Shown: one piece after another, positions 142-62,045 of the stretch
How the letters are laid out: each line of letters opens with the position of its first letter
How positions within the stretch are numbered: position 1 is the first letter of the stretch
Assembly (NCBI GenBank): GCA_964389675.1
Contig: CAYMEV010000001.1
Location: 156,539 to 220,538, forward strand
Origin: an uncultured Candidatus Sumerlaeota bacterium
GTDB lineage: Bacteria > CAYMEV01
Length of the DNA: 64,000 bases
Direction: 5' to 3'
Position numbers and translations under genes: made by a program
Notes under the pieces: model-generated
What the model saw: the letters and a program-made list of their open reading frames with translations, nothing else
Database searches by the model: none
Told to the model about the DNA's origin: nothing

Positions 142-1734
142 ATGAACCACAATGAAACAAACAGAAGTACCCTGAAGCTCATCCACGGCACTCTCATAAG
201 CAAGGTATTCGGATTCCTGAGGGAAGTGATAATTGCAGCAAAATTTGGTGCAACAGCTGTTTCAGATGCATTTTTCCTGGCTCTTCAGATACCGGTCCTC
301 TTCAGAAGAATATTGGGTGAAGAAATGTTCGAAAAGACGATCATGCCAGTATTTGTCAACAAGCTTTCAAAGGACCGGAATAATGCCTGGAGATTCATTT
401 CAACCCTTTTCTGGTATTCAGTACTGCTGTCAGTATTAACGGTAGCCTTCCTGTATGCGCTAAAAAAGCCACTCATTGGCTTAATAGCACCCGGCATCAC
501 AGACCCTGAGACTGTCCTTCTGATAAACAGGATGGCTACATATATTATACCCTACCTTATACTGACAACGGTCTATTCCTTCCTGGGAACCATCTTCAAT
601 TTCACAAAAAGGCAGTTTATATTCTCCGTTGCGCCTGCAGTAAGCAATATTGCAATAATTGCCCTTATCCTTCTGTTTTATCCATATATAGAAGAATTAA
701 GCCTTCCGGTCGGATTCCTCCTTGGCGGTGTATTCTATATAATTTTCCTGATCCCGTTCTTCATGACCAGAAGATACAGGGAGGATTATCTTCCCAGGCT
801 CAGTTTCAGCTTGAGGAGGCCGTCAGCCGAGATTAAAACAGTCTCATCTGAATCCTTCTGGGTATTCATGCAGGCAATTTTAAATAAATCAGTGGAGCTG
901 GTTGACAGAATAATAGCATCTTTCCTGATAACAGGGAGTATTTCAGGGCTATGGTACGCAAAGAGGCTGGAACAGCTGCCGTCCTCCATTATCTCGATGT
1001 CCATATCAAGGGCAATTCTTTCCAATCTCTCTGACCACCATGCCAGAGAAAACTACCATGATTTTGGAGAGACCATAGTTTATGGAATAAAGCTCTGCAT
1101 ATCAGTCATAACCCCTGTCACAGTCTTGTTATGCCTCCTTGGAAAACCTGTAAGCATTTTTATATTTAAAAGGGGCGAATTTTCCGAAGCTGCGGCAGAT
1201 ATGACATCCCAGGCATTTATTGCATATGGTATTGGTTTCCTTGCTGTTGCATTCTATAACCTTTTTTCAAGGACATATTCAGTGCTTGCAAAAAACAGGT
1301 TTACTGCTGTAATAATGCTTTTTGCCTCTTTAATGAACGTACTGCTGAGCATTCTCCTGGCGCAGACATTTCTAAAGCTTGCAGGCATTGCGCTTGCTTC
1401 ATCTGTATCCTTCTATTTTGCTTCGATCATTCTTTTTATACAGCTTAAAAAAGAGCTCAGAGCAATAGGCTACACTATTGACCTTAAAAAACTTGGGTTT
1501 TTTGCCTTCAAGATCGCAGCAAGCTGTTCCTTAATGGGAATTATTGTATTTTATTCATTCCGGATCATGCAAAGGCATCTGTATATATCATTAAGCCTTT
1601 TATACTTTGACATCGGCCTGCTTATTATAATAACCGCTTCAGCTGTTTCGGGCCTTACCGCATTTATTCTTCTTTGCTGGTTTTTTGATATAAGGATCAT
1701 AAAAAATCTTTTTAATATCTTGAAAAAAAATTAA
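142..1734 (+). CDS. murJ: Lipid II flippase MurJ/MviN
   Basis: 530-aa polytopic membrane protein. The N-terminus LIHGTLISKVFGFLREVIIAAKFGATAVSDAFFLALQIPVLFRRILGEE is the conserved MurJ/MOP-superfamily signature. Confidence 0.85.
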   Translation: MNHNETNRSTLKLIHGTLISKVFGFLREVIIAAKFGATAVSDAFFLALQIPVLFRRILGEEMFEKTIMPVFVNKLSKDRNNAWRFISTLFWYSVLLSVLTVAFLYALKKPLIGLIAPGITDPETVLLINRMATYIIPYLILTTVYSFLGTIFNFTKRQFIFSVAPAVSNIAIIALILLFYPYIEELSLPVGFLLGGVFYIIFLIPFFMTRRYREDYLPRLSFSLRRPSAEIKTVSSESFWVFMQAILNKSVELVDRIIASFLITGSISGLWYAKRLEQLPSSIISMSISRAILSNLSDHHARENYHDFGETIVYGIKLCISVITPVTVLLCLLGKPVSIFIFKRGEFSEAAADMTSQAFIAYGIGFLAVAFYNLFSRTYSVLAKNRFTAVIMLFASLMNVLLSILLAQTFLKLAGIALASSVSFYFASIILFIQLKKELRAIGYTIDLKKLGFFAFKIAASCSLMGIIVFYSFRIMQRHLYISLSLLYFDIGLLIIITASAVSGLTAFILLCWFFDIRIIKNLFNILKKN

Positions 1735-1791
1735 ATTGCTGATAATATCCATAATTATTCTTAAACCTTAATTTATAATTATAAAGGAGAT

Positions 1792-4353
1792 ATGACCATG
1801 AAGATAGATAAAACCTTTAATGTTATTCCATCAATCCCGAAAGAACTGAAGGATCTTGAAATCATAGGCAACAATCTATGGTTCAGCTGGCATCCCGATG
1901 CCATAAATCTCTTTCACAGGCTGGATCCTGATCTCTGGGAAAAGGTCTCCCATAATCCCGTGGCAATGCTGGGCTCCCTTGATCAGAGCATTTTTGATGA
2001 GAGAAGGACTGATGAAGGCTATCTTATGCAGCTTGAAAGGGTTAAGAATGATTTTGACAGATATACAGGTTTTAAGACCTCTTATAATTTTAATATAGAT
2101 GAGCCTATAGACTTTTCCATAGCCTATTTCTCCGCTGAATTCGGCTTATCTGACTGCCTCCCCATCTACAGCGGCGGACTTGGGATATTATCAGGAGATC
2201 ACCTTAAATCAGCGTCTGACCTTCGTATTCCCCTTATAGGTGTCGGCCTGCTGTACCAGGAGGGATATTTCCATCAATACCTGAACGCAGACGGATGGCA
2301 GCAGGAGACCTACCCGGAAAATGATTTCAGCAGCCTTCCAATAAAGCTCCTTCGCGATGATCACGGGAATCCATTGTACAATTCGGTAAAAATCCTTAGC
2401 AGGGATGTTTTTTTTAAGATATGGGAAGTTAATGTAGGCAGAATATCCCTTTATCTCCTTGATACAAATACTCACAAAAACAGTATGGAGGACAGGGAAA
2501 TTACATCCCAGCTTTATGGCGGCGATTCTGAAATGAGGATAAAGCAGGAGATCCTCCTTGGAATAGGGGGCACAAAGGCACTGAACATGCTTGATATACA
2601 TCCCAGCGTTTATCATATGAATGAGGGCCATTCAGCATTTGCAATACTTGAGAGAATAAACCTTGCAATGAAAAAATACGGCCTTAACTTCAATGAAGCA
2701 AAGGAAATGGTCATATACTCTAATGTATTCACGACCCATACTCCCGTCCCTGCCGGTGTGGACCGTTTTGAGCCGGAGCTTATAACCAAATATTTTCAGG
2801 GATATGTCCCTGAGATCGGCATCAGTGTGGATGATCTTCTTCAGTTTGGGAGGATAAACCCGTCTTCGAAAAAAGAACCATTCTGCATGCTTGTATTTGC
2901 CATGAACTTCTCAGCGTTCAGGAATGCTGTCAGCAAGCTCCATACCAGGATATCAAAGAATATGTGGGCAAATATCTGGCCTAAATTCCCCAAGGAAGAC
3001 TCTCCTGTTGACGGTGTCACAAATGGTATCCATATCCCCTCCTGGATCTCCACCGATATGGGAAGCCTCTATGACAGGTATTTAGGCAGAAGGTGGATGG
3101 AAGATCCTGACAATGAAAAGGTCTGGGACAGGATCAATACAATACCCGATTCAGAGCTTTGGAGAACACATGAAAGAAGGAGGGAAAGGCTTGTCGGCTT
3201 TTCAAGGAGAAGGCTTCTAAGGCAGCTAAAAAACAGGGGGGCATCAAACAGCTATATTGAAAAAAGCGTTGAAGCATTGAACCCGGAAGCCCTGACGATA
3301 GGCTTTGCAAGAAGATTTGCAGCATATAAGAGGGGAAACCTTATCTTCAGGGACCCTGACAGAATAGCAAGGATACTCCAGAACCACGACAGGCCAGTTC
3401 AGATAATCTTCTCAGGCAAGGCTCACCCCCGGGATAATGAGGGGAAAAGGATAATAAAGGACATAATACATTTTCTGAAGGAAGAGCCATTCCGGAGCCA
3501 TGTTGTTTTTATTGAAGACTATGACATAAATGTTGCAAGATACATGGTCCAGGGTGTGGATTTATGGATGAATACACCCAGAAGGCCTGAGGAAGCATGC
3601 GGAACCAGCGGAATGAAGGCGACAGCCAACGGGGCGATCAACATGAGCATCCTGGACGGCTGGTGGGATGAGGCATATAATTTCAACAATGGATGGGCAA
3701 TCGGCAAAGGGGAGGAATATACAGACCTTGAACTTCAGGATGATGTTGAAAGCAGGGCTATATATACCCTTCTTGAAGAGGAGGTCGTACCCCTTTTCTA
3801 TAAAAAGGGCGCCGACAATATATCCAAAGACTGGGTCAAACTGATGAAGAACAGCCTCATAGGCCTCTGCAAATATTTCAATACCCACAGGATGGTGGAA
3901 GATTATCTGCTGAAGTATTATTATCCCGCTGCAAAGCATTATGATGTCTTTCAGAAAAACCCTGAAAAGAACAAAGAGCTGGCAGAATGGAAAAGCTTTA
4001 TGAAAAGCGGCTGGAACAATATAAAGGTGCTCAAGGTAATAACAAAGGAAAATGGCAATTCAGTTAAAATCAATAATCCCTATATAGTTGAAGCACGTAT
4101 AGATCTCGGCAGCATCAAGCCGGAAGACATCCAGGTGGACATTTATTACGGCAGACTGAATCATAAAGCAGAGCTGACCACCAGGGATATATGCCCTATG
4201 GTCCTTGAAAGCGCTGCTGATACATCAGTCTATAATTTCAAGGGCCTGGTTTGCCCCCAGAAAACAGGCAAATTTGGCTTTTTCATAAGGATTCTACCGA
4301 AACATCCCCTTCTTTTTGATATATACAGCTTAAACCTGGTACACTGGATATAG
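1792..4353 (+). CDS. glgP: Alpha-glucan (glycogen/maltodextrin) phosphorylase, GT35 family
   Basis: 853 aa. Motifs FSAEFGLSDCLPIYSGGLGILSGDHLKSASDLRIPLIGVGLLYQEGYFHQ and EACGTSGMKATANGAINMSILDGWWDE match the pyridoxal-phosphate site of GT35 phosphorylases. GGAGA RBS lies 6 nt before the ATG. Confidence 0.85.
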   Translation: MTMKIDKTFNVIPSIPKELKDLEIIGNNLWFSWHPDAINLFHRLDPDLWEKVSHNPVAMLGSLDQSIFDERRTDEGYLMQLERVKNDFDRYTGFKTSYNFNIDEPIDFSIAYFSAEFGLSDCLPIYSGGLGILSGDHLKSASDLRIPLIGVGLLYQEGYFHQYLNADGWQQETYPENDFSSLPIKLLRDDHGNPLYNSVKILSRDVFFKIWEVNVGRISLYLLDTNTHKNSMEDREITSQLYGGDSEMRIKQEILLGIGGTKALNMLDIHPSVYHMNEGHSAFAILERINLAMKKYGLNFNEAKEMVIYSNVFTTHTPVPAGVDRFEPELITKYFQGYVPEIGISVDDLLQFGRINPSSKKEPFCMLVFAMNFSAFRNAVSKLHTRISKNMWANIWPKFPKEDSPVDGVTNGIHIPSWISTDMGSLYDRYLGRRWMEDPDNEKVWDRINTIPDSELWRTHERRRERLVGFSRRRLLRQLKNRGASNSYIEKSVEALNPEALTIGFARRFAAYKRGNLIFRDPDRIARILQNHDRPVQIIFSGKAHPRDNEGKRIIKDIIHFLKEEPFRSHVVFIEDYDINVARYMVQGVDLWMNTPRRPEEACGTSGMKATANGAINMSILDGWWDEAYNFNNGWAIGKGEEYTDLELQDDVESRAIYTLLEEEVVPLFYKKGADNISKDWVKLMKNSLIGLCKYFNTHRMVEDYLLKYYYPAAKHYDVFQKNPEKNKELAEWKSFMKSGWNNIKVLKVITKENGNSVKINNPYIVEARIDLGSIKPEDIQVDIYYGRLNHKAELTTRDICPMVLESAADTSVYNFKGLVCPQKTGKFGFFIRILPKHPLLFDIYSLNLVHWI

Positions 4354-4363
4354 AACTGCAGCA

Positions 4364-5269
4364 ATGATAAAAAGCACTCTTAAGCTGTACAGGAAGACAG
4401 ACTGCATAACATCGGGATACCTTGCCTTCAGCAGCCTGATGATAGCAGTCTTTCACAGGAACATTAGACACTTTCATATTTTCCTCTCATTAAACCTGCT
4501 TTTGATGGTCCTGGTATTTCTTCTGATTAATTACAGAAAGAGAAGCAGGAACAGGTTTATTGCTCTTCTCAGGGACTGGTACCCGGTAATCCTGTACACA
4601 TTTCTTTTCGAAGAGACCGGATGGATTAACAGGACCCTGTTCAGCGATTATATAGACAGGTTCTTCATAGGGCTTGAATATAAAATATTCGGGCTCCATC
4701 CTGCAATAGAGCTTGGAAGGCTGTTTGACAATGTATATATAATGGAATACTTTCATTTTTCATACTTTACATATTACCTGATAATCCCGGGACTGGGGTT
4801 TCTTCTCTACTATAATAACCGGAAACACTTCCATGAATATCTTTTCGTCTCCTCATTCACATTCTACACATGCTATATCTCCTATATATTTCTGCCTGTT
4901 CTTGGCGCGAGGTATTATGCAAATGCACCATTCTTCGCAGAGCCTTTCTGGAAAGAGGGTTTCCTGTTCGTGCCTGTAATGAGGTTCATATATTCAGTAG
5001 GAGAGGTTGACGGAGCTGCTTTCCCCAGTTCACATGTAGCCATAGCTGCAGTAATCCTGATTTATGCATACAAATATGCAAAAAAATACCTTGCCCTCTT
5101 CTTTGTGGTGGTAGTATCACTGATAATCTCTACTGTTTACTGCAGGTTCCATTATCTGATAGATGTAATTGCAGGTATTTTATGGGCTCTGTCAGGCTTC
5201 TATTTCGGAAGGAAGCTTTACTTCTCGTCTCTTTTCGGCTGTGATAATGCAGTACTGGAAAACAGCTAA
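4364..5269 (+). CDS. PAP2-superfamily membrane phosphatase/phosphotransferase
   Basis: Multi-TM protein with PAP2 motifs PSSHVAIAAV and CRFHYLIDVIAG (the SxH and SRxxxxxHxxxD-like boxes). Confidence 0.6.
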   Translation: MIKSTLKLYRKTDCITSGYLAFSSLMIAVFHRNIRHFHIFLSLNLLLMVLVFLLINYRKRSRNRFIALLRDWYPVILYTFLFEETGWINRTLFSDYIDRFFIGLEYKIFGLHPAIELGRLFDNVYIMEYFHFSYFTYYLIIPGLGFLLYYNNRKHFHEYLFVSSFTFYTCYISYIFLPVLGARYYANAPFFAEPFWKEGFLFVPVMRFIYSVGEVDGAAFPSSHVAIAAVILIYAYKYAKKYLALFFVVVVSLIISTVYCRFHYLIDVIAGILWALSGFYFGRKLYFSSLFGCDNAVLENS

Positions 5270-5402
5270 AAAAAATATTTTATTGTAATAATTTATTAGC
5301 AACATATGATATTATAAAATCGATAATTTATGTAAACTGATTCCTGTTAGAAAATTTGGTTTTCGTTATATTGAAACCTAAAAATACAAAAGGAGATGAA
5401 CC

Positions 5403-5897
5403 ATGGAAGAAACCTTATTCAAAGATGAGGACCTGAAAGACTTCTTTGACAAAAAGAAAAGTTTTGCAGAAATTGCAGGAATCCCTCCTGAAATGCTCGC
5501 TTACTTTGCTGAGATGGCCTATAACCTCTATGAGCAGGGCCAGTATGAGGATGCCAAAAACATTATGGACAAAGTAATTATGATAGAGCCAAATGTTGCA
5601 TACTCTCATGCATTGTTAGGGGCGATCTATCAGAAACAGGAAAAATTCGATGAGGCTGTTGACTGCTATACAAAGGCAATAGACCTGAACCCGGAAGAGC
5701 TGCCGGCACTTGTTAACAGAGGAGAGCTTTATCTTCAGAGTTCAAAGTTTGACGAAGCTGCAAAGGACCTTGAAAAGGCAATAGACCTTGATCCCAAGGG
5801 AGAGGACCCTTATGCTCTCAGAGCCCGTACGCTTGTCCTTGTAACACATGAGCTTTTAGCAGAAGCAGAAAAATTAGCAAAAGAAAAACAGAAATAA
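5403..5897 (+). CDS. Type III secretion class II (translocator) chaperone, SycD/LcrH/CesD family, three TPRs
   Basis: 164 aa. It aligns by eye to Yersinia LcrH: YEQGQYEDAKNIMDKV vs YQSGKYEDAHKVFQAL; LLGAIYQKQEKFDEAVDCYTKAIDLN vs GLGACRQAMGQYDLAIHSYSYGAIMD; ELYLQSSKFDEAA vs ECLLQKGELAEAE. AAAAGGAGA RBS lies 5 nt upstream. Confidence 0.7.
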   Translation: MEETLFKDEDLKDFFDKKKSFAEIAGIPPEMLAYFAEMAYNLYEQGQYEDAKNIMDKVIMIEPNVAYSHALLGAIYQKQEKFDEAVDCYTKAIDLNPEELPALVNRGELYLQSSKFDEAAKDLEKAIDLDPKGEDPYALRARTLVLVTHELLAEAEKLAKEKQK

Positions 5898-5933
5898 TAC
5901 AGGGGGGTAATACCCCCTGTCTGATACAAATTT

Positions 5934-8042
5934 ATGAAGCTTATCAACTTTAATCAGCTTAAGAGCTCATTCCTTTCAGGCGACCTGAGCCTTGTTTTGA
6001 ACAGGTATAGCGACCTGCTCCTTGCGCTTCTGGTAATAGTCATAGTAGGCATGATGATAATCCCTCTGCCGACATGGCTTTTAGATATCCTCCTTACTAT
6101 AAATATTACCATAGGCGTTGTTTTACTGCTTATATCCCTTTATATACCAAATGCCCTTAATATTGCATCATTCCCTACGATTCTTCTTATAACCACACTC
6201 TACAGGCTTGCCTTAAATGTTTCCACAACAAGGCTTATTCTTCTCTATGCCAATGCCGGTACAGTCGTTGAGAGTTTCGGCGAGTTTGTTGTCAAAGGCA
6301 ATTATGTGGTAGGTTTTGTAATATTTCTCATCCTTGTAATCATAAATTTTCTTGTCATATCAAAGGGTGCTGAGAGAGTAAGCGAGGTCTCTGCAAGGTT
6401 TGTCCTTGATGCCATGCCGGGAAAACAGATGAGCATAGACTCAGACCTGCGCGCGGGGGCTTTTGACCTGAATGAGGCGAGACGACGCAGGACATCTCTT
6501 CAGAGGGAAAGCCAGCTTTACGGCGCTATGGATGGAGCCATGAAATTTGTAAAGGGGGATTCGATTGCAGGAATTATAATAACAATAATAAACATAGTAG
6601 GCGGAATCATTATCGGTGTTTTTATGATGGACCTCACTATTGTCGATTCCCTTCAGACATTCACACTTTTAACCATAGGTGACGGCCTTGTATCCCAGAT
6701 ACCTGCACTGCTGATATCCACCACATCAGGAATAATCGTTACAAGGGTAGCATCAGAAGAAGAAGACTCCAATCTCGGAAAGGATATAGGGACGCAGATA
6801 CTGGCTCATCCCAAGGCTATTTCAATAGCCTCAGGCCTTCTTGTCGCGCTTGCCATTATCCCGGGGCTCCCATTCAAACCGTTTATAATTCTGTCGATAT
6901 TCACCGGCAGTCTCGGTTACTCCCTTTACAAGACGAAAAGCCTGAAAGATGCTGAGATGGAGGAAAATGAAGAAAAGGAAGAAACTACTGAGACTTTCTT
7001 CCAGCCCTTCAGTATTCCCATAGCCCTGGATATTGGAAAAGGGCTCTCTCAATACCTGGATCCAAAGGATAAGGGTGAAAAATTCGATTCAGAGCTTCTC
7101 CCCATGATGATACAGTATTTCTACTTTGACATAGGCGTGAAGCTTCCCTATCCACAGATCAGGCTTTATGATCCATATATTGAACCCTTTTCCCTCACTA
7201 TCCGCATCAATGAGATCCCTGAAGCTGAATTCAACTATATTGACAAGCATTACCTGGTCGGTGAATCCTGTGAAAACCTCCAGACACTTAAATTTGACGG
7301 GATACCGGCTGTAAATCCATCTACAAAAGCACCTGCAACCTTCGTAAGCGAGGATAAAGTTGAATTTATGAAAAACCTCTTCCCTGTCTGGGGCCCTGAT
7401 GAATATGCAATATTGTGCCTGGAAGGGGTATTAAGGAATAAGGCGGCTGAATTCCTCGGCATCCAGGAGGTCCAGGGCATGCTTGATCAGATGCAGAACA
7501 GCTTCCCTGCCCTTATAAAGAATACCATTCCGAAGATCATCAATATTGACAAACTGACAGAGATATTAAAAAGGCTCGTTTCAGAATCCATTTCAATCCG
7601 CGACCTGAGGATCATCCTGGAAGCCATTATCAAGCACGGCAAGGGAGAAGAAGACACAGGAAAACTTACTGAAGCTATAAGAAGTGAGATGAAGAACTAT
7701 CTTACATATAAATACAAAAAGGGAAGCCCCAGCCTTGTGGTATTCCTGATGTCTCCCGACATGGAAGAAGCAATAAAGAATTCCATTAAATATACCCCGA
7801 AGGGAGCATTTTTGACCCTTGACAATGAAACCATGACCGCTTTCCTGAAAGGGGTACAGAAGGTTCTGGAAAGCATTCCGCCATCAGCACCCAAACCTGC
7901 CATACTTGCATCCCCTGAAACCAGGAGGTTTGTCAGGATACTGGTTTCCTTTGATTTTCCTGATGTTCCGGTAATCAGCATAAACGATATTGTTCCTGAT
8001 ACTCAGATCCAGCCGATAAGCTATATAAAACCGGTTTACTGA
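5934..8042 (+). CDS. Type III secretion export apparatus gate protein, FlhA/SctV (LcrD/InvA) family; the sequence favours the injectisome SctV branch
   Basis: 702 aa with 8 N-terminal TMs and a cytoplasmic C-domain. Conserved blocks FPTILLITTLYRLALNVSTTRLIL, SARFVLDAMPGKQMSIDSDLRAGAFDLNEARRRRTSLQRESQLYGAMDGAMKFVKGDSIAG and TLLTIGDGLVSQIPALLISTTSGIIVTRV. NEAR.RR and DGAMKFVKGD resemble LcrD more than FlhA (EAKKRR, DGASKFVRGD). It sits beside a SycD-like chaperone. Confidence 0.8.
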   Translation: MKLINFNQLKSSFLSGDLSLVLNRYSDLLLALLVIVIVGMMIIPLPTWLLDILLTINITIGVVLLLISLYIPNALNIASFPTILLITTLYRLALNVSTTRLILLYANAGTVVESFGEFVVKGNYVVGFVIFLILVIINFLVISKGAERVSEVSARFVLDAMPGKQMSIDSDLRAGAFDLNEARRRRTSLQRESQLYGAMDGAMKFVKGDSIAGIIITIINIVGGIIIGVFMMDLTIVDSLQTFTLLTIGDGLVSQIPALLISTTSGIIVTRVASEEEDSNLGKDIGTQILAHPKAISIASGLLVALAIIPGLPFKPFIILSIFTGSLGYSLYKTKSLKDAEMEENEEKEETTETFFQPFSIPIALDIGKGLSQYLDPKDKGEKFDSELLPMMIQYFYFDIGVKLPYPQIRLYDPYIEPFSLTIRINEIPEAEFNYIDKHYLVGESCENLQTLKFDGIPAVNPSTKAPATFVSEDKVEFMKNLFPVWGPDEYAILCLEGVLRNKAAEFLGIQEVQGMLDQMQNSFPALIKNTIPKIINIDKLTEILKRLVSESISIRDLRIILEAIIKHGKGEEDTGKLTEAIRSEMKNYLTYKYKKGSPSLVVFLMSPDMEEAIKNSIKYTPKGAFLTLDNETMTAFLKGVQKVLESIPPSAPKPAILASPETRRFVRILVSFDFPDVPVISINDIVPDTQIQPISYIKPVY

Positions 8043-8095
8043 TCCTGGCTGAAAATTTTTATAGATTCTTTTTCAAAAATTAATACTATTGCCCT

Positions 8096-10393
8096 ATGGA
8101 TGCTTCAATTATTATTCCCTGCTATAATTCAGAAAATACAATAAAGGAATGTATCGACAGCATAATCCTTGATTCACAGAATACACACCATAATGTGGAG
8201 ATCATTGCAGTCGATGACGGTTCAAACGACAGCACGAGGGATATACTCAGGAGCTACAAGGATGTAAAATATATCTATATCGAGAATATGGGGCCAGCTA
8301 CAGCAAGGAACAGGGGGGCAGAAACTGCCAGGGGAGAAATACTTCTTTTTACAGATTCAGACTGCATAGTCCAGCCAGGCTGGATCGATCAGATGCTGAT
8401 ACCCTTCCTTGAAAACAGACACATATCTGCAGTAAAAGGCGCCTACAGGACTCATCAGGAAGAGATTACAGCCCAGTTCTGCCAGCTTGAATTCCAGGAA
8501 AGATACCGGTTTCTTGAAAGACAGAAATTCATTGATTTTGTCGATACATATTCAGCGGCTTTCAAAAAGGATACATTCTGGGAGATAGGCGGATTTAACG
8601 AGAGTTTCCCCTATCCGAACAATGAGGATGTTGACTTGAGCTACAGGATGGCAAGCTACAGCAAGCTTATGGTCTTTAATCCAAAAGCGGTTGTTATACA
8701 TAAGCACAAAACAAAAGCAATTGATTATTTTAAGCTTAAATTCAGCAGGGCTTTCTGGCGGATGGTCGTTTACAGCAAATATCCTGAAAAGATAATCAGG
8801 GATTCTTATACGCCATACTCACTCAAAATTCAGATGATCCTTTTAGATGTTATGATCTTATCGCTTATACTAAGCCCTTTTATTAAACATGCCTTTTCCA
8901 TTTCTATTGCTGCTTTTGGTTTTTTTATCCTGTCATGCATACCTTTTTCTGTAACGGGCCTGAAGAACAGCTTCAGCCTTTTTCTGGTATCATTTCCAAT
9001 GCTTTTCCTGAGGGCACTGGCATTAAATCTCGGCATATTAGCATCCCTTTTCCCTATCAATCTAAATAAGCTGTTGAGCATAGGGCTTATAATTATTGAC
9101 AGCCTGACAATAATAGCCTCAATAATATTGTCATATATGGCTGTATCCTTTCTGTTATATGGAAGCCTTTTCAGCCCGGGCATTCCGATTAAAAGCTACC
9201 TGTATGCAATCCCTGCAGTAATCCTCCTTTATCTGATAATCCTTCAGAGTTCCGGGCTTTACCACATTCCTCAGAACTGTTCCGGAATATCCTATCTATT
9301 CAAGGTTTTCAGCAGTTCCCTGGTGCTGACTCTCTCGCTTGCTTCAATAAGCTACCTGTTTTTCCTTGATTATTCAAGGGCAGTTCTTGTATTGATATTC
9401 CCGACAGTATTCACGATTTCGATAACGGCAAGGATACTCTGGTTCAGGTTTTCAGAATTTCTTATCACAAGCGGCTACGGTACAAGAAGGGCTGTAATCG
9501 TCGGTATAAACGACACATCCAGGGCTCTCGCTGAAAAGATGATAAATATCAAAAACCTCGGCTACCGTTTTATCGGCTATATAGCCGGGAGCAGTAATGA
9601 AACAGGCCAGGCGAGAATAATAGGCAACATAAACAATCTGCCGAATATAATAAAGTCATACAGGATAAATGATGTGTTTTTTTCTGATCCTGAAATATCC
9701 ACAGATATTATTTTTGATATAATCTCAAGATCAAGCTATGACATAGCCTCATTCAAGATAGTCACTTCCGCCTCTGACATACTCATAAAAACAGTCGATA
9801 TCGAGTCCATTTCTGATATACCCCTGATCGACCTTAAAAATATACCCCCTTCATTTTTCTATAAGCTGTTAAAAAGGCTTTTTGACCTGGCTTTTGCTCT
9901 AATTCTCATTATACCACTTCTCATACCGCTTTTCATATTCTATCTTATCCTCATGGCATTCTGTGATGAAGAGCCTGTAATAAAGAGGACCCCCTCCACA
10001 GGCTATAAGGAAAAAGCTTTCAATATATTTACTTTCAATATAGACCCGTTAAAGAAAAAGGGTATATTAAAGGGCATTGTATATGGATTATATAAGAGGC
10101 TGTACATTTACCAGCTTCCAAAGCTTTTCAATGTATTCAACGGTACAATGAGTTTTGTAGGCCCAGGGGCGATCCCCAATGATTCTGCAAGGAAGTACAA
10201 AAGATGGCAGAGGATCCGGTTTGAGGCAATACCCGGGATTACAGGCATATCCCAGATAATGAACAGGGATCATAAGGATAATCCGGTAAGGATGCTGGAA
10301 TATGATTTCTTCTACATCAGGAACCGCTCCCTTGTAATGGACCTGGCAATACTTGTCAAAACGATAATTTATATGCTGTTTAAGGTATTATAG
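8096..10393 (+). CDS. Fusion protein: N-terminal GT2 glycosyltransferase, polytopic membrane region, C-terminal WbaP-type polyprenyl-phosphate phosphoglycosyltransferase (PGT)-like domain, apparently degenerate
   Basis: GT2: IIIPCYNSENTIKECIDSI..AVDDGSNDST..LLFTDSDCIV (DxD). PGT-like: Rossmann-like region GTRRAVIVGINDTS.., then YQLPKLFNVFNGTMSFVGPGA (cf. PglC/WbaP DELPQLINVLKGDMSLVGPRP) and PGITGISQI (cf. PGLTGLAQV). Confidence 0.65.
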   Translation: MDASIIIPCYNSENTIKECIDSIILDSQNTHHNVEIIAVDDGSNDSTRDILRSYKDVKYIYIENMGPATARNRGAETARGEILLFTDSDCIVQPGWIDQMLIPFLENRHISAVKGAYRTHQEEITAQFCQLEFQERYRFLERQKFIDFVDTYSAAFKKDTFWEIGGFNESFPYPNNEDVDLSYRMASYSKLMVFNPKAVVIHKHKTKAIDYFKLKFSRAFWRMVVYSKYPEKIIRDSYTPYSLKIQMILLDVMILSLILSPFIKHAFSISIAAFGFFILSCIPFSVTGLKNSFSLFLVSFPMLFLRALALNLGILASLFPINLNKLLSIGLIIIDSLTIIASIILSYMAVSFLLYGSLFSPGIPIKSYLYAIPAVILLYLIILQSSGLYHIPQNCSGISYLFKVFSSSLVLTLSLASISYLFFLDYSRAVLVLIFPTVFTISITARILWFRFSEFLITSGYGTRRAVIVGINDTSRALAEKMINIKNLGYRFIGYIAGSSNETGQARIIGNINNLPNIIKSYRINDVFFSDPEISTDIIFDIISRSSYDIASFKIVTSASDILIKTVDIESISDIPLIDLKNIPPSFFYKLLKRLFDLAFALILIIPLLIPLFIFYLILMAFCDEEPVIKRTPSTGYKEKAFNIFTFNIDPLKKKGILKGIVYGLYKRLYIYQLPKLFNVFNGTMSFVGPGAIPNDSARKYKRWQRIRFEAIPGITGISQIMNRDHKDNPVRMLEYDFFYIRNRSLVMDLAILVKTIIYMLFKVL

Positions 10394-10398
10394 GACAT

Positions 10399-11823
10399 AT
10401 GAAAGTTTTCTTTATCAACCCGCCTTTCATTAAAAAATTCTCAAGGCCTCAAAGGTCCCCCGCAGTCACCAAGAGTAATACAATGTATTATCCGCTGATG
10501 CTTTCTCAGGCTGCAGCAAACCTGAAATACCTTGCTTCAATAAATGTCTGCCTTATTGATGCATGCGCAAAAAGCATGACTGAAGAGGAAGTATTTGAAA
10601 AGATACCTGAATCGGACGAGAACCTGGCTGTCATAGAAACATCTACACCAAGCATTGAAAATGATATATCCTTTGCAGAGAGACTGAAGGAAAAGAGGAA
10701 AATAAAGACCTTCCTGGCAGGTACCCATGTCAGCGTTCTTAAAGATAAGATATTAAAAGACAGCAGGATTGACGGCTTATTTACCGGAGAATGGGACAGG
10801 ACTATCATGGATATGCTTGATAAAGGCATTGAAAACACGGGCGGAATTATATATAGAAAGGAAGAAGAAATTATAGATACCGGAGAACCCGATGTTTTTG
10901 AAAACCTTGATTCATTACCCTTTGTATCAAGGATATACAGGGAATTTCTGGATATAAAAGACTATTTCAATCCAAATGCCAGGTTTCCCATGGTGACTAT
11001 CTCTACATCAAGAGGGTGCCCTTTCACCTGCAGGTTCTGCCTTTATCCCCAGACATTCTTCAGGGCAAAGATAAGAAGAAGAAGCATTGATCACATTCTC
11101 AAAGAGATTGATTATATACTAAAAGAGCTTAAGCCTGCTTCAATATTCTTCGAGGATGACTGCTTCACATACGATAAGGAATTTGTCAGAGATTTCTGCA
11201 AAGAGATAATAAAAAGATATAAAAAGCCTTTCAAATGGACTGCAAATGCACGTGCAGACCTGGATTATGAACTGCTTGCCCTGATGAAAAAAGCGGGGCT
11301 GACAGTGCTTTGTGTCGGATATGAAAGCGGCAATCAGAAGGTTCTGGACTGGATAGACAAGAAGATCACCGTGGAAAGGATGATAAGATTCAGCGAATCC
11401 GCAAAAAAAGCAAAAGTACTGGTACATGGCTGTTTTGTCCTGGGGGCTCCGTTCGAGGACTTTGACAGCCTGAAAAAGACACTGGATCTAGTGCTCAGGG
11501 TCAGGCCTGATACAATCCAGGTCTATCCGATAATTGTATACCCGGGGACAAAAATATATCAGGAATACGAATACCTGGGGCTTCTTGAATTTGAAACCTA
11601 CAGGGACTGGCTTACAGAAAAAGGTCTTCTGAATACAACCATCAGGACAAAACATCTATCAAAAAAGGACCTTATTGATTATACATATCTCATAAGGAAA
11701 AAATTCTACCTCAGGCCGTCATATATAATAAAAAAAGGATTTTCAACAATTTTAAACCCCAGGGAATTTTCAAGGACATTCAAGGCTTTCAAGGCTTTCT
11801 GCAGGTTCATAAAAAACAGGTAA
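10399..11823 (+). CDS. B12-binding-domain radical SAM protein
   Basis: 474 aa. N-terminal cobalamin-binding-like region, then TISTSRGCPFTCRFCLYPQ (CxxxCxxC) and a radical-SAM core (VGYESGNQKVL). The start lies 5 bp after the upstream gene. Confidence 0.7.
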   Translation: MKVFFINPPFIKKFSRPQRSPAVTKSNTMYYPLMLSQAAANLKYLASINVCLIDACAKSMTEEEVFEKIPESDENLAVIETSTPSIENDISFAERLKEKRKIKTFLAGTHVSVLKDKILKDSRIDGLFTGEWDRTIMDMLDKGIENTGGIIYRKEEEIIDTGEPDVFENLDSLPFVSRIYREFLDIKDYFNPNARFPMVTISTSRGCPFTCRFCLYPQTFFRAKIRRRSIDHILKEIDYILKELKPASIFFEDDCFTYDKEFVRDFCKEIIKRYKKPFKWTANARADLDYELLALMKKAGLTVLCVGYESGNQKVLDWIDKKITVERMIRFSESAKKAKVLVHGCFVLGAPFEDFDSLKKTLDLVLRVRPDTIQVYPIIVYPGTKIYQEYEYLGLLEFETYRDWLTEKGLLNTTIRTKHLSKKDLIDYTYLIRKKFYLRPSYIIKKGFSTILNPREFSRTFKAFKAFCRFIKNR

Positions 11824-49790: not shown

Positions 49791-50676
49791 TATTATAATC
49801 ATAGGGTGCGGCCCGGCCGGTATGTCCGCAGCATTACAGCTGAAAAGATACGGATATTCCTTTGAGGTCTTTGAAAAAAGCCAGATAGGCGGGCTGGTAA
49901 AGAATGCAAACCTGATCGAGAACTACCCGGGTTTTCCTCACGGGATAAGGGGAACAGAGCTCATACAGCTTTTTGCTGAACAATGCAGGATTAACGATAT
50001 CAAGCCGGTCTATGAAAAAGTGACAGACCTTGATTACCTCGATGACCTGTTCTATATAAAGACCAAACAGAACTATTTCAGGTCAGCATACGCAGTAATT
50101 GCAACAGGAACAGAGCCAAGGAAGCTTAATCTGCCTAATACTGAAAATATGAATGGCAGGAATATCTTTTATGACATTTATGAGATCATGCAGGTTAAAG
50201 ACAAGAATATAGCAATAATAGGATCAGGGGATATTGCATTTGATTATGCACTGAACCTTTCGGATAATAATACGGTTACAGTCTTCAACAGGAGCCAGGC
50301 TCCGAAATGTATCCCGATACTCTGGGAACGGGCAAAGAAAAAGGAAAACCTGATCTACCTGAACAGATCCAACCTTATTAATATATTCCCAACGGAATCT
50401 GACAGAATAAAGCTGGAGTATTACTCCAATGATGAACATGCAGTAAAGGAGGGCTTTTTCGATTATGTAATACCTGCAATCGGAAGACAGCCGGCAAATA
50501 ATTTCATATCGGAAAGGATATATAAAAATCAGAACATGCTTATTAAGAACGGAAGGCTCTTCTTTATTGGAGACTTCAATAATGACATATGCAGGCAGGT
50601 AGCTATATCAGCGGGAGACGGAATAAAGACGGCCATGCTGTTAAAAAGCAGGATTGAGAGCACAAAAAGGGACTGA
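49783..50676 (+). CDS. FAD/NAD(P)-binding oxidoreductase (TrxR-like fold, no CxxC)
   Basis: IIIIGCGPAGMSAALQ dinucleotide motif and a second Rossmann IAIIGSGDIAFDYA. No redox-active CxxC seen. 8-bp overlap with the upstream gene. Confidence 0.65.
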   Translation: MIDIIIIGCGPAGMSAALQLKRYGYSFEVFEKSQIGGLVKNANLIENYPGFPHGIRGTELIQLFAEQCRINDIKPVYEKVTDLDYLDDLFYIKTKQNYFRSAYAVIATGTEPRKLNLPNTENMNGRNIFYDIYEIMQVKDKNIAIIGSGDIAFDYALNLSDNNTVTVFNRSQAPKCIPILWERAKKKENLIYLNRSNLINIFPTESDRIKLEYYSNDEHAVKEGFFDYVIPAIGRQPANNFISERIYKNQNMLIKNGRLFFIGDFNNDICRQVAISAGDGIKTAMLLKSRIESTKRD

Positions 50677-51629
50677 TGAGGGTAATAAAGAAGACACATA
50701 GATCCAGTATAGCCTCGGTATATATTGCCAGGACAGCTGACGGCCATCTGGTTGAGTTCGTGGAAAGCATTCAGCCTCCTCTCTCCAGGAGAGAAAAGTG
50801 GGTCATAATACTCTCTTCGCTGGTAGGATGCCCTGCAAAATGCAAATTCTGCGAAGCCGGCGGCAATTTTAAGCGAATCCTCAGCAAGGACGAGCTGTTT
50901 TTCCAGATCAGATACCTTCTGGATCTATACGGATTTGCAGGTTCAGTCCCTTCAGCCAAGTTCAAGATTCAGTTTGCCAGGATAGGGGAGCCCTCATTCA
51001 ATAATAATGTACTTATGCTCCTGGAAGACCTGCCTTCAGCAATAGATTCTCCCGGGCTTCTCCCATGCATCTCCACTATTGCTCCTCAATCCAGAGGGGC
51101 TTTCTTTGAAATGCTTCTGGAGATAAAGAACAGGCTTTATAAAAAGGCCTTTCAGCTTCAGTTCTCTGTCCACTCAACTGACAGAAACTTCAGGGATTAC
51201 CTTCTCCCTTTGCCTAAATGGCCTCTGGAACAGATTGCTGACTATGGCAGAAGGTTTTATAATAAGGACAACAGAAAGATCACACTGAATTTCGCCCCAT
51301 CTGTTAATACACCTGTCTGTCCGGAAATTATTAAAAAGCACTTTGATCCTGACATTTTTCTTCTGAAATTCACTCCGATAAATCCCACATCTGAAGCAAA
51401 AAGGAATCGCCTGAAATCACTTATAAACCCCCGGGGAAAAAAATACGACATAATAGAAAAGCTGAGGACAGCAGGTTTTGATGTAATATTAAGCCTGGGT
51501 GAGTATGAAGAGAACAGGATAGGAAGCAATTGCGGGCAGTATATTACAAATTTCAATAAAGCATCAAGGCAGGTTGATGATGCCTATACATACCCGCTTG
51601 AGAATGTATCGTCAGAAACAAAGGTTTGA
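50676..51629 (+). CDS. RlmN/Cfr-like radical SAM enzyme, short form; appears to lack the Cys118-equivalent resolving cysteine
   Basis: ILSSLVGCPAKCKFC (cf. RlmN CVSSQVGCALECKFC); ARIGEP (MGMGEP); ISTIAPQS (LSTSG); SVHSTDRNFRDYLLPLPKWP ([20 protein letters not shown]); C-terminal GSNCGQYIT (cf. AACGQLAG, the methyl-carrying Cys355). Start codon shares 1 bp with the upstream stop (TGATG). Confidence 0.6.
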   Translation: MRVIKKTHRSSIASVYIARTADGHLVEFVESIQPPLSRREKWVIILSSLVGCPAKCKFCEAGGNFKRILSKDELFFQIRYLLDLYGFAGSVPSAKFKIQFARIGEPSFNNNVLMLLEDLPSAIDSPGLLPCISTIAPQSRGAFFEMLLEIKNRLYKKAFQLQFSVHSTDRNFRDYLLPLPKWPLEQIADYGRRFYNKDNRKITLNFAPSVNTPVCPEIIKKHFDPDIFLLKFTPINPTSEAKRNRLKSLINPRGKKYDIIEKLRTAGFDVILSLGEYEENRIGSNCGQYITNFNKASRQVDDAYTYPLENVSSETKV

Positions 51630-61785: not shown

Positions 61786-62045
61786 ATTAAAGATCCTCCC
61801 GGACTATATCCTTAAGCAAAATTGCAGACAGCATATTATGAAATATTATAGTATTTTTCTCCATCTTTCCAGTTATATTTTTATGAGCCTGATTTTTAGA
61901 GCATGAAATTAAGATTTCAAGCATTATTTCCATGCCCGTTTTAAAAGGGAGGCTTTTTGGGAATCCGGCAATGATAATTTACTGTCAGATCGATCCTGAT
62001 TATGCTATAATATTTAAACATAAATAACTGTTCTGAAAGACTCTC

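What the first reader, a model, noticed from the sequence alone, without database searches (positions are those of the whole stretch)
5403..8042. Orphan injectisome-type export gate (SctV) with a translocator-class TPR chaperone and no other T3SS genes
A two-gene unit with its own AT-rich upstream region. The first gene is a SycD/LcrH-family class II chaperone; blocks align residue-by-residue with Yersinia LcrH. The second is a full-length FlhA/SctV export gate whose conserved loops (NEARRRR, DGAMKFVKGD) look more like LcrD/InvA than flagellar FlhA. Nothing else in 64 kb encodes SctU/R/S/T, a secretin, needle, ATPase or translocators. Flanking genes are housekeeping (PAP2 phosphatase, GT2 glycosyltransferase). 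Class II chaperones normally guard pore-forming translocators, so a chaperone paired only with the gate protein is unusual. It may be a remnant, a dispersed T3SS as in Chlamydiae, or a repurposed gate-plus-adaptor module.
Basis: partly seen in the sequence, partly recalled or inferred. Interest (0 to 1): 0.7.

Follow-up and report, generated by a model that had tools for sequence, protein, structure and literature searches.

The report
Detached T3SS gate-plus-chaperone gene pair
Two well-conserved genes, a type III secretion export gate (SctV) and a SycD/LcrH-like chaperone, are the tail end of the "needleless" secretion operon known from myxobacteria, but here they sit alone among housekeeping genes of an uncultured low-GC anaerobe; whether the rest of the machine lies elsewhere in the genome could not be checked.

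Summary
Window 5403-5897 encodes a 164-aa acidic cytoplasmic TPR protein. Window 5934-8042 encodes a full-length 702-aa SctV. No other T3SS gene was found among the ~55 other window ORFs scanned.

- **SctV is injectisome-type, not flagellar.** It passes the NCBIfam SctV cut-off and fails the FlhA cut-off. It sits in a 100%-bootstrap non-flagellar clade and carries the diagnostic DGAM motif.
- **It belongs to the Myxo-type "needleless" T3SS group** (about 50% identity).
- **The pairing itself is not odd.** Myxo-type operons end ...sctU-TPR1-needle/rod-like gene-TPR2-sctV. The window TPR corresponds to TPR2.
- **The chaperone is SycD/LcrH-like by profile and fold,** but falls below the NCBIfam cut-off.
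- **The pair is not a remnant.** Five relatives (71-91% SctV identity) carry SctV; three with upstream sequence keep PAP2-TPR-SctV. Synonymous sites are saturated while pN is 0.05. The pair is more conserved than its housekeeping neighbours.
- **Detached TPR-SctV or solitary SctV loci recur** in at least three other lineages of this group.

Best reading: a functional, separately transcribed module of a multi-locus Myxo-type T3SS. A truly orphan, repurposed gate is not excluded, because only 64 kb of the genome could be seen.

The parts
5270..5402 (+). AT-rich upstream regulatory region of the two-gene unit. It holds conserved blocks ATTTATTAGCAAC (5291-5303) and CGATA (5321-5325; TCGATAAT in the window), and a strong Shine-Dalgarno AAGGAG (5390-5395).
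   Evidence: Sequence. Alignment with L081 and L083 shows conserved blocks, although synonymous sites between these genomes are saturated. The promoter scan count is no higher than chance, so the promoter itself is inferred.
5403..5897 (+). SycD/LcrH-like TPR chaperone: 164 aa, pI 4.6, no signal peptide. It corresponds to the sctV-proximal TPR gene ('TPR2') of Myxo-type T3SS operons.
   Evidence: - TIGR02552 gives 68 bits end to end, below the cut-off.
- The family profile matches PcrH, SycD and AcrH over their full length, E about 1e-17 to 1e-19.
- The AF2 model has pLDDT 95. The best natural structural matches are IpgC, AcrH, SycD and Scc3.
- It is 38-43% identical to the TPR directly upstream of sctV in L001, L023 and L087, and 32-37% to those in L085 and L170.
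- pN is 0.05 against a saturated pS.
5899..5920 (+). Intercistronic GC-rich hairpin (8-bp stem, 6-nt loop, -16.7 kcal/mol) between the chaperone stop codon and the sctV start codon. No U-tract follows it, and sctV has no recognisable Shine-Dalgarno.
   Evidence: The stem is kept in L081 and L083 through base changes on both arms. Its function (setting the chaperone:gate expression ratio or stabilising the mRNA) is inferred.
5934..8042 (+). Full-length non-flagellar T3SS export-gate protein SctV (702 aa), Myxo-type lineage.
   Evidence: - Family scores as.
- By PDB sequence search, YscV (528 bits) > SsaV (423) > FlhA (374).
- The NJ tree puts it in a non-flagellar clade with 100% bootstrap and a Myxo-type clade with 87%.
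- It keeps 93 of 101 near-invariant family positions.
- The TM domain is 66-70% identical to Myxo-type SctV.
- dN/dS is about 0.02.

Best explanation
The pair is a functional, separately transcribed module of a Myxo-type ("needleless", T3SS*-like) non-flagellar type III secretion system. It corresponds to the last two genes of the ancestral operon ...sctR-S-T-U-TPR1-needle/rod-like-TPR2-sctV.

- **Shown:** the identity of both proteins, the inherited adjacency, the conserved position in this lineage and strong purifying selection.
- **Inferred:**
  - SctV forms the nonameric inner-membrane export gate.
  - The acidic SycD/LcrH-like TPR protein holds a secretion substrate and delivers it to the SctV cytoplasmic ring. 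In relatives the likely substrate is the needle/rod-family protein encoded next to it.
  - The remaining core genes (sctRSTU, N, J, Q, L and the needle/rod-like substrate) lie at other loci of the same genome, as in other scattered T3SSs.
  - The conserved hairpin and the missing ribosome-binding site in front of sctV plausibly keep gate expression below chaperone expression.
For: 1. **SctV identity and placement**.
2. **Full operons in the same SctV group.**
   - L001, L023, L090, L091, L170 and L173 carry full operons that end in a TPR gene at or near sctV. In L170 three genes intervene.
   - L090 and L091 branch basal to the window clade, so a full operon is the ancestral state.
3. **Selection.**
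   - TPR and SctV are 91% identical to L081 at the protein level.
   - The flanking MurJ, PAP2, GT2, rSAM and GlgP are 67-88% identical.
   - pS is 0.72-0.77 (saturated) and pN is 0.05.
4. **Conserved position.**
   - PAP2-TPR-SctV is kept in L081, L082 and L083.
   - The GT2 gene directly follows SctV in L081, L082 and L084, and lies 3.4 kb downstream in L083.
5. **Gate machinery intact.**
   - 93 of 101 near-invariant positions are kept, including the charged TM/FHIPEP residues.
   - The TM domain is 66-70% identical to Myxo-type SctV.
6. **Splitting at this point recurs.**
   - L085 has rod-like-TPR-SctV between glycosyltransferase and nuo genes, yet its sister L173 has the full operon.
   - L174 has needle-like-TPR-SctV among housekeeping genes.
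   - L087 has an SctD-like gene beside the module.
7. **No compositional anomaly** at the locus.
8. **Literature.** Scattered non-flagellar T3SS loci and conserved, functional Myxo systems are documented (PMC3459982; PMC12075869).
Against: - No other T3SS gene lies in the 5.4 kb upstream or the 56 kb downstream of sctV. L081 extends the upstream view to about 8 kb and also shows none.
- The rest of the genome could not be searched: the contig is 330,654 bp but DNA look-ups for it returned nothing. The existence of partner genes is therefore pure inference.
- Unlike every other TPR2-sctV locus examined, the window clade lacks the needle/rod-like gene upstream of the TPR.
- The SctV cytoplasmic domain is unusually diverged (37-40% to Myxo-type; 8 mismatches at near-invariant positions, the maximum seen in the set).
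- The host looks unlike a myxobacterium: GC 41.5% and anaerobic metabolism.
Confidence: 0.55

Rival explanations
1. True orphan, repurposed module. The lineage kept or acquired only TPR2-sctV. The SctV nonamer with its TPR adaptor works without SctRSTU, for example as an ion-conducting or protein-handling membrane complex, possibly linked to the envelope polysaccharide genes around it.
For: - Nothing T3SS-like is present in 64 kb.
- The needle/rod-like putative substrate gene is missing only in this clade.
- The cytoplasmic domain is unusually diverged while still under selection.
- Detached or solitary SctV loci recur, and all four seen here lie next to glycosyltransferase or sugar-nucleotide genes: the window, L085, L174 and L172.
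Against: - From general knowledge of T3SS assembly, not tested here: SctV/FlhA rings assemble around the SctRST/FliPQR core, and no autonomous function of SctV is known.
- The near-complete retention of gate-domain residues fits the canonical role.
- L085's sister lineage has the full operon, and L087 has SctD next to the module. This shows that such modules coexist with other T3SS parts.
- Absence of partners is unproven beyond 64 kb.
Confidence: 0.25
2. The module serves another export apparatus in the same cell, for example a flagellar T3SS or a second, complete non-flagellar T3SS. It would act as an alternative gate subunit with its own chaperone, comparable to the stray flagellar homologues of Chlamydia.
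For: - Myxobacteria carry more than one Myxo-type locus (PMC3459982).
- Solitary SctV paralogues occur in this group (L021, L172).
- The SctV TM domain is highly conserved.
Against: - There is no evidence of any flagellar or T3SS gene in the window.
- No second SctV or FlhA of this lineage was seen.
- This reading cannot be told apart from the best explanation without the genome.
Confidence: 0.12
3. Decaying remnant of a lost T3SS.
For: The location is isolated, and the other operon genes are lost from the locus.
Against: - Both ORFs are intact in the relatives that cover them: SctV in all six clade sequences, the TPR gene in the window, L081, L082 and L083.
- pN is 0.05 against a saturated pS.
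- Both genes are more conserved than the neighbouring housekeeping genes.
- The regulatory region and the intercistronic hairpin are also conserved.
Confidence: 0.03
4. Flagellar FlhA with a generic TPR neighbour.
For: FlhA and SctV are homologous. TIGR01398 scores 616 bits. Generic Pfam TPR families score highest on the 164-aa protein.
Against: - The FlhA score is below its cut-off, while the SctV model passes.
- The non-flagellar clade has 100% bootstrap.
- The DGAM Met is found in none of 104 flagellar sequences.
- The TPR adjacency is inherited from T3SS operons.
- Class II chaperones are the best natural structural matches.
Confidence: 0.01

Closest known systems
Myxo-type 'needleless' non-flagellar T3SS (T3SS*) of Myxococcus and other Cystobacterineae (Abby & Rocha 2012, PMC3459982; Herrou et al. 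2025, PMC12075869)
   Same: - SctV groups inside this radiation (about 50% identity, 87% bootstrap).
- The TPR gene corresponds to the TPR directly upstream of sctV in these operons (38-43% identity).
- No secretin or translocon genes are nearby.
   Different: - Only the last two operon genes are present at the locus.
- The needle/rod-like gene that precedes TPR2 elsewhere is absent.
- The host is a low-GC (41.5%) anaerobe of unresolved taxonomy, not a high-GC myxobacterium.
- The SctV cytoplasmic domain is more diverged.
- No Tad/Kil genes are in the window.
Scattered non-flagellar T3SS of Chlamydiales
   Same: Core T3SS genes are spread over several loci among housekeeping genes. SycD/LcrH-like chaperones are present (Scc3 is among the structural matches).
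   Different: - SctV is only about 44% identical and lies outside the chlamydial branch.
- In the two Chlamydiae loci fetched here, sctV sits next to sctU (L002, L004), which is not the case in the window.
- The lifestyle here is free-living and anaerobic.
Class II T3SS translocator chaperones (SycD/LcrH, PcrH, IpgC, AcrH, SicA; TIGR02552)
   Same: - Same length class, acidic, cytoplasmic.
- N-terminal helix, three TPRs and a long C-terminal helix.
- Full-length profile match and the best natural fold matches.
   Different: - The score is below the family's trusted cut-off (68 versus 104.8 bits).
- No translocator genes are adjacent.
- The family has its own invariant C-terminal DP...RAR motif.
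- In relatives the neighbouring candidate substrate is a needle/rod-family protein rather than a pore former.
YscY (SctY)-YscV arrangement of the Ysc family
   Same: A TPR chaperone gene lies immediately upstream of sctV. From general knowledge, YscX-YscY binds the SctV ring.
   Different: The SctY model scores only 27 bits against a cut-off of 70. No SctX-like gene is present. The protein is 164 aa, not about 110.

Membership tests
SctV (non-flagellar T3SS export gate, TIGR01399) | Scores above the curated family cut-off and above the flagellar paralogue | tested here: met
   749.6 bits versus a cut-off of 692.25. FlhA gives 615.9 versus a cut-off of 772.1.
SctV (non-flagellar T3SS export gate, TIGR01399) | Full-length FHIPEP architecture: N-terminal TM domain with the conserved cytoplasmic loop, a linker and a C-terminal ring domain | tested here: met
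   - Pfam FHIPEP matches 1-656 of 657.
- Hydrophobic segments are confined to residues 28-320.
- 93 of 101 near-invariant positions are kept.
SctV (non-flagellar T3SS export gate, TIGR01399) | Phylogenetic placement with injectisome SctV rather than FlhA | tested here: met
   - NJ tree of 199 sequences: the non-flagellar clade of 95 has 100% bootstrap.
- Met203 of DGAM is in 95 of 95 non-flagellar and 0 of 104 flagellar sequences.
- By PDB sequence search, YscV > SsaV > FlhA.
SctV (non-flagellar T3SS export gate, TIGR01399) | Encoded together with the other core export genes (sctR, S, T, U, N, J, Q) | tested here: not met
   None is present in the 64-kb window or within 10 kb in L081-L083. Genome-wide presence is not testable with these tools.
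Myxo-type needleless T3SS (T3SS*) | SctV belongs to the Myxo clade | tested here: met
   The 50-sequence clade has 87% bootstrap. Operon-bearing L090 and L091 are basal to the window clade. The method is NJ only, so branch order within the clade is weak (24-63%).
Myxo-type needleless T3SS (T3SS*) | Conserved operon sctJ-L-N-O-P-Q-fliO-R-S-T-U-TPR-needle/rod-like-TPR-sctV | tested here: not met
   Only TPR2-sctV is present at the locus. The full operon is seen in L001, L170 and L173.
Myxo-type needleless T3SS (T3SS*) | Absence of secretin, needle filament and translocon genes in the genome | not testable with these tools
   Only 64 kb of a contig of at least 330 kb is visible.
Myxo-type needleless T3SS (T3SS*) | Host belongs to Myxococcota | tested here: inconclusive
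   GC is 41.5%, with an anaerobe gene set (NiFe hydrogenase, NAD-dependent formate dehydrogenase, Bat operon). The nearest named enolases are only about 63% identical and come from mixed phyla.
Class II T3SS chaperone (SycD/LcrH family, TIGR02552) | Scores above the curated cut-off | tested here: not met
   68 bits versus 104.8. The control TPR P0245/P0250, which has no T3SS gene within 10 kb, scores 78 bits. A sub-cut-off hit alone therefore does not prove T3SS function.
Class II T3SS chaperone (SycD/LcrH family, TIGR02552) | End-to-end homology including the pre-TPR N-terminal helix | tested here: met
   The model is aligned over 2-129 of 136. Profile A3 matches PcrH 6-136, SycD 7-132 and AcrH 4-137 in single stretches, E 5e-19 to 2e-17.
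Class II T3SS chaperone (SycD/LcrH family, TIGR02552) | All-helical fold with three TPRs; small, acidic, cytoplasmic | tested here: met
   - AF2 pLDDT is 95, with 9 helices.
- By Foldseek, the highest query TM-scores go to AcrH (0.77), IpgC (0.71) and SycD (0.70).
- pI is 4.59, mass 18.8 kDa, no signal peptide.
Class II T3SS chaperone (SycD/LcrH family, TIGR02552) | Encoded next to, and binding, hydrophobic translocators | tested here: not met
   No translocator-like gene is in the window. In relatives the neighbour is a needle/rod-family protein. Binding is not testable here.
Flagellar FlhA (TIGR01398) | Score above the cut-off, flagellar clade, flagellar gene neighbourhood (fliPQR-flhB-flhA) | tested here: not met
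   The score is below the cut-off, the protein lies outside the flagellar clade, and there is no fliPQR or flhB nearby.
SctY (YscY-type assembly chaperone, NF052415) | Score above the cut-off | tested here: not met
   27.2 bits versus a cut-off of 70.

The most novel reading that the evidence does not exclude
The window lineage, and perhaps the other lineages with detached or solitary Myxo-type sctV, has no SctRSTU, ATPase or basal body at all. Under strong selection it maintains a stand-alone SctV nonamer plus a SycD/LcrH-like adaptor that performs a new function without a secretion channel. That function may be tied to the envelope polysaccharide genes that flank all four detached loci seen here. 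This would be the first autonomous use of the T3SS export-gate protein.
Probability: 0.2. Interest if true: 0.85.

Novelty: new variant of a known kind. Interest (0 to 1): 0.45.

Why it matters
The Myxo-type system is regarded as the earliest-branching non-flagellar T3SS, and its mode of action is still open. This finding adds three things:

- The family reaches low-GC anaerobic uncultured lineages.
- Its operon has a recurrent break point that frees a (needle/rod-like)-TPR-sctV module.
- The sctV-proximal TPR protein is a SycD/LcrH-type chaperone, in a system described as lacking a translocon.

If the rest of the machine is found elsewhere in the genome, this is one more scattered T3SS, with a chaperone-gate pair suitable for studying substrate docking. 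If it is not found, SctV would have a function independent of secretion, which would change how solitary FHIPEP-family genes in metagenomes are read.

Tried and rejected
1. **Locating the window's own contig.**
   - Exact look-ups of the window SctV and of the identical enolase P0121 returned no DNA.
   - The sequence is nevertheless on record on a 330,654-bp NCBI contig. A genome-wide search for the rest of the T3SS was therefore impossible.
2. **Host taxonomy.**
   - The enolase search gave a 'Candidatus Kuenenia' hit with a high score. It proved to be an artefact of an internally duplicated 635-aa protein, only 58% identical.
   - Other named hits are about 63% identical and come from mixed phyla.
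   - The window has no tRNA and no Rfam RNA.
   - Cluster look-ups gave no organism names.
3. **More clade members.** The metagenome-contig scan found none (best 48%). The genome-contig scan also had no close relative (best 51%).
4. **PDB sequence search with the single TPR sequence.** It was swamped by designed consensus TPR proteins. It became informative only with the family profile.
5. **Promoter and terminator scan.** Counts were at or near chance level, so no promoter is claimed.
6. **Literature.** Searches for orphan or solitary SctV/FHIPEP genes, and for T3SS in anammox bacteria, gave nothing relevant.
7. **Chlamydiae-type affiliation.** Considered and rejected on identity and tree position.
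8. **Recent horizontal acquisition.** Considered and not supported. GC is uniform and the position is conserved across relatives of 71-91% identity.
Full report
**1. What is there**

The two ORFs are exactly as reported. A 164-aa protein is encoded at 5403-5897 and a 702-aa protein at 5934-8042, both on the + strand. A 133-bp AT-rich region with a strong AAGGAG ribosome-binding site precedes the first gene. A 36-bp spacer separates the two genes.

The 702-aa protein matches Pfam FHIPEP end to end (710 bits). It passes the NCBIfam equivalog cut-off for SctV (749.6 versus 692 bits) and fails the one for flagellar FlhA (615.9 versus 772). Against solved structures, Yersinia YscV scores 528 bits, SsaV 423, and the best FlhA 374.

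I built a neighbour-joining tree from 199 SctV/FlhA sequences taken from the fetched loci and protein hits (681 columns, 100 bootstraps).
- The protein falls in a 95-member non-flagellar clade with 100% support. That clade also holds chlamydial, Bilophila, Achromobacter, Pseudomonas and Erwinia sequences.
- The 104 flagellar sequences, including all Firmicutes, form the remainder.
The Met is present in 95 of 95 non-flagellar sequences and in none of 104 flagellar ones, which carry S, T or N. NEARRRR does not discriminate.

**2. The rest of the window**

I scanned every ORF of 120 aa or more, plus one 66-aa ORF, against Pfam. No T3SS or flagellar family appeared.
- The content is that of an anaerobe. 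It includes MurJ, alpha-glucan phosphorylase, PAP2, a GT2/Bac_transf fusion, radical-SAM enzymes, a group-3b-like NiFe hydrogenase and an NAD-linked formate dehydrogenase with FdhD, MobA and FocA.
- It also includes a MoxR/DUF58/VWA/BatD operon, fab genes, RNase III and enolase.
- tblastn with a full set of Myxo-type T3SS proteins taken from L170 (SctL, N, O, P, Q, R, S, T, U) and with the needle/rod-like proteins found nothing in the window or in the relatives' loci.
- GC is uniform across the locus.

"No other T3SS gene in 64 kb" is therefore confirmed.

**3. Relatives and selection**

The closest SctV proteins are 91%, 86%, 85% and 71% identical. After that there is a gap down to about 52%.

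The contigs carrying the close relatives keep the arrangement.
- L081, L082 and L083 have PAP2-TPR(164 aa)-SctV.
- In L084 (71%), whose contig starts inside sctV, the GT2/Bac_transf orthologue follows SctV.

Between the window and L081, synonymous sites are saturated (pS 0.72-0.77) while pN is 0.05 for both genes.
- Both proteins are 91% identical to their L081 counterparts.
- The flanking MurJ, PAP2, GT2, radical-SAM and GlgP proteins are 67, 72, 73, 73 and 88% identical.

The pair is thus the best-conserved part of its neighbourhood, and a decaying remnant can be dismissed.

The SctV also looks like a working gate.
- It keeps 93 of 101 positions that are at least 90% conserved across the whole family, including the charged residues of the TM/FHIPEP region.
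- Its 8 mismatches are mostly in the cytoplasmic domain (R393I, W470F, H495C, P631N). Eight is the maximum seen in the set.
- The TM domain is 66-70% identical to Myxo-type SctV. The cytoplasmic domain is only 37-40% identical.

**4. Which T3SS family**

Beyond its own small clade, the nearest sequences are the SctV of Myxococcota and "Deltaproteobacteria" MAGs. In the tree, the window clade (100% support) is nested in a 50-member Myxo-type clade (87%).

This is the "Myxo" non-flagellar T3SS of Abby & Rocha. They describe it as the earliest-branching injectisome lineage, lacking a secretin, SctF, a tip protein and a translocon (PMC3459982). In Myxococcus xanthus it is the "needleless" T3SS* that acts with the Kil Tad pilus in prey lysis (PMC12075869).

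**5. The pairing is inherited**

In Archangium locus L001, NCBIfam names the genes upstream of sctV as follows:
- sctQ, a fliO-like gene, sctR, sctT, sctU and a 92-aa FlhB-C-like ORF;
- a TPR protein that passes the LcrH_SycD cut-off (112.5 bits; "TPR1");
- a 171-aa protein with no family match;
- a second TPR protein (83.7 bits; "TPR2");
- sctV.

The window TPR is 38-41% identical to TPR2 of L001 and 43% to that of L023.

The same end of the operon is seen elsewhere.
- It appears in L023, L089, L090 and L091.
- It appears, with pre-computed Pfam annotation of complete operons (sctJ-L-N-O-P-Q-fliO-R-S-T-U ... TPR ... TPR ... sctV), in L170 and L173.
- L090 and L091 branch basal to the group that holds the window clade, so the full operon is the ancestral state.

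The window pair is therefore its last two genes.

**6. What the TPR protein is**

Evidence for a SycD/LcrH-type chaperone:
- The best NCBIfam model is TIGR02552, aligned over positions 2-129 of 136. This includes the helix before the TPRs.
- A profile of the family (alignment A3) matches PcrH, SycD and AcrH in single end-to-end stretches, with E from 5e-19 to 2e-17.
- An AlphaFold model has pLDDT 95. Its highest query-normalised TM-scores go to AcrH (0.77), IpgC (0.71) and SycD (0.70), with chlamydial Scc3 also listed. Designed TPRs reach 0.67 at most.
- The protein has 164 aa, pI 4.6 and no signal peptide.

Caveats:
- The score of 68 bits is below the trusted cut-off of 104.8.
- A control shows that this level is not specific to a T3SS context. 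The cytoplasmic 250-aa proteins P0245 and P0250 come from a 67%-GC genome and have no T3SS gene within 10 kb. They score 78 bits and are 44% identical to the window protein over its whole length.
- Those proteins share the family's own signatures, an N-terminal ...AEL.G... segment and an invariant DP...RAR motif. They are probably stand-alone members of the same family rather than generic TPR proteins.

Membership of the equivalog family is therefore not met. Membership of the wider SycD/LcrH-like family is well supported, mainly by the inherited synteny.

**7. A likely client, missing here**

In every other locus with TPR2-sctV, the gene just upstream of TPR2 encodes a protein of 170-480 aa.
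- It has a Gly-rich N-terminus.
- Its C-terminus has the form ...MMKTM....M.IIQN.K/R (L001, L023, L085, L087, L089, L090, L091, L170, L173, L174).
- From my recollection of PrgI and MxiH, not tested here, this C-terminus resembles those of needle and inner-rod proteins. In L087 the pre-computed annotation gives a weak T3SS_needle_F hit.

This is probably the "inner rod" gene of Abby & Rocha. It is the obvious candidate substrate of TPR2, which is an inference from adjacency only. The window clade has a PAP2 membrane protein in that position and no such gene anywhere in 64 kb.

**8. Detached modules recur**

| Locus | GC | Arrangement | Context |
|---|---|---|---|
| L085 | 35% | rod-like-TPR-SctV | Between glycosyltransferase genes and the nuo operon. 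Its sister L173 has the complete operon. |
| L174 | 46% | needle-like-TPR-SctV | Among FtsH, nucleotidyl-transferase and polysaccharide-deacetylase genes. |
| L087 | 35% | needle-like-TPR-SctV | An FHA/YscD-like gene lies alongside. |
| L172, L021 | 67-69% | Solitary sctV, no TPR | L172 lies between lexA and ABC-transporter/dTDP-sugar genes. |

Many other non-flagellar sctV loci also lack sctQRTU within 10 kb. The junction before the (rod)-TPR2-sctV block is thus a repeated break point. At least some of these genomes clearly own other T3SS parts.

**9. Most likely mechanism**

- **Shown:** an intact, selected SctV of the Myxo type; an intact, selected SycD/LcrH-like partner inherited with it; a conserved upstream region of their own; and a conserved intercistronic hairpin. 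The hairpin lies at 5899-5920, folds at -16.7 kcal/mol with z = -3.4, and keeps its stem in L081 and L083 through changes on both arms.
- **Inferred:**
  - The two genes form a separate transcription unit of a multi-locus, needle-less T3SS.
  - SctV forms the nonameric gate around an SctRST/U core encoded elsewhere.
  - The TPR protein carries a needle/rod-family or other early substrate to the SctV cytoplasmic ring.
  - The hairpin, together with the absence of a Shine-Dalgarno before sctV, keeps gate synthesis below chaperone synthesis.

I put this at 0.55. The main rival, a true orphan with a new function, gets 0.25. The reasons are the empty 64 kb, the missing client gene and the diverged ring domain. 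A gate subunit serving another export apparatus gets 0.12. Remnant and flagellar readings are essentially excluded.

**10. Limits**

- The genome beyond the window could not be searched.
- Host taxonomy is unresolved.
- The tree is distance-based, and the order of branches inside the Myxo clade is weakly supported (24-63%).
- The client assignment rests on gene order alone.

**11. Verdict**

It is best filed as a detached variant of the Myxo-type T3SS rather than an unexplained oddity. The genome-level "orphan" claim is untested. Interest is moderate (0.45). It would be high if a whole-genome search showed that no other T3SS core gene exists.

Noticed in passing
window 5899-5920 (also L081 about 7925-7945, L083 about 1650-1670): A GC-rich 8-bp hairpin lies in the 36-bp spacer between the chaperone and sctV. 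It is kept in two diverged relatives through changes on both arms and is not followed by a U-tract. sctV has no Shine-Dalgarno, whereas the chaperone has AAGGAG.
   Followed up: partly
window 5291-5303 and 5321-5325: Sequence blocks ATTTATTAGCAAC and CGATA (TCGATAAT in the window) in the AT-rich upstream region are conserved in L081 and L083, although synonymous sites are saturated. They may be a promoter or a regulator site.
   Followed up: no
L001 8646-9161; L023 7386-8567; L085 8820-9392; L087 776-1864; L089 396-1070; L090 4961-5479; L091 8120-9256; L170 9326-9991; L173 8703-9395; L174 7480-8913: Myxo-type 'needleless' T3SS loci all encode, just upstream of the sctV-proximal TPR gene, a protein of variable length (170-480 aa). 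It has a Gly-rich N-terminus and a needle/rod-like C-terminus (...MMKTM....M.IIQN.K/R). The window clade lacks it.
   Followed up: partly
L168/L169 10001-10750 (P0250; also P0245-P0263): A family of cytoplasmic proteins of about 250 aa in 67%-GC genomes is 44% identical to the window chaperone over its full length. It scores 78 bits on the LcrH_SycD model, yet no T3SS gene lies within 10 kb; it sits next to a BamD-like gene.
   Followed up: partly
L172 10001-12151; L021 10001-12130: Solitary Myxo-type sctV genes, without even a TPR neighbour, lie among housekeeping genes (lexA, an ABC transporter, dTDP-sugar genes). They belong to a well-supported 20-member subclade.
   Followed up: partly
window 142-11823; L085 5041-7078; L174 6378-7190 and 12199-13236; L172 12158-19985: All four detached sctV loci seen here lie beside envelope-polysaccharide genes: MurJ, PAP2 and GT2-Bac_transf; GT4 and GT2; a nucleotidyl-transferase and a polysaccharide deacetylase; an ABC-2 exporter and dTDP-sugar enzymes. 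This may be coincidence.
   Followed up: no
L001 7250-7528; L023 6577-6849: A 90-92-aa ORF that consists only of an FlhB/SctU C-terminal domain directly follows the full-length sctU in Archangium loci.
   Followed up: no
window 61786-63250: About 1.4 kb has only two short ORFs (53 and 76 aa, the latter reaching in from the 3' edge). No Rfam match, tRNA or notable repeat was found.
   Followed up: partly
P0125 (not in the window): An enolase annotated 'Candidatus Kuenenia sp.' has 635 aa with an internal duplication of about 290 residues. This inflated its score and briefly suggested a wrong taxonomy for the window.
   Followed up: yes
window 50676-51629, 51756-52499, 53301-55490, 63251-63682: Four ORFs (317, 247, 729 and 143 aa) have no Pfam family at E<=0.001. 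The 729-aa and 143-aa ORFs have none even at E<=0.1; the other two show only weak sub-threshold hits.
   Followed up: no
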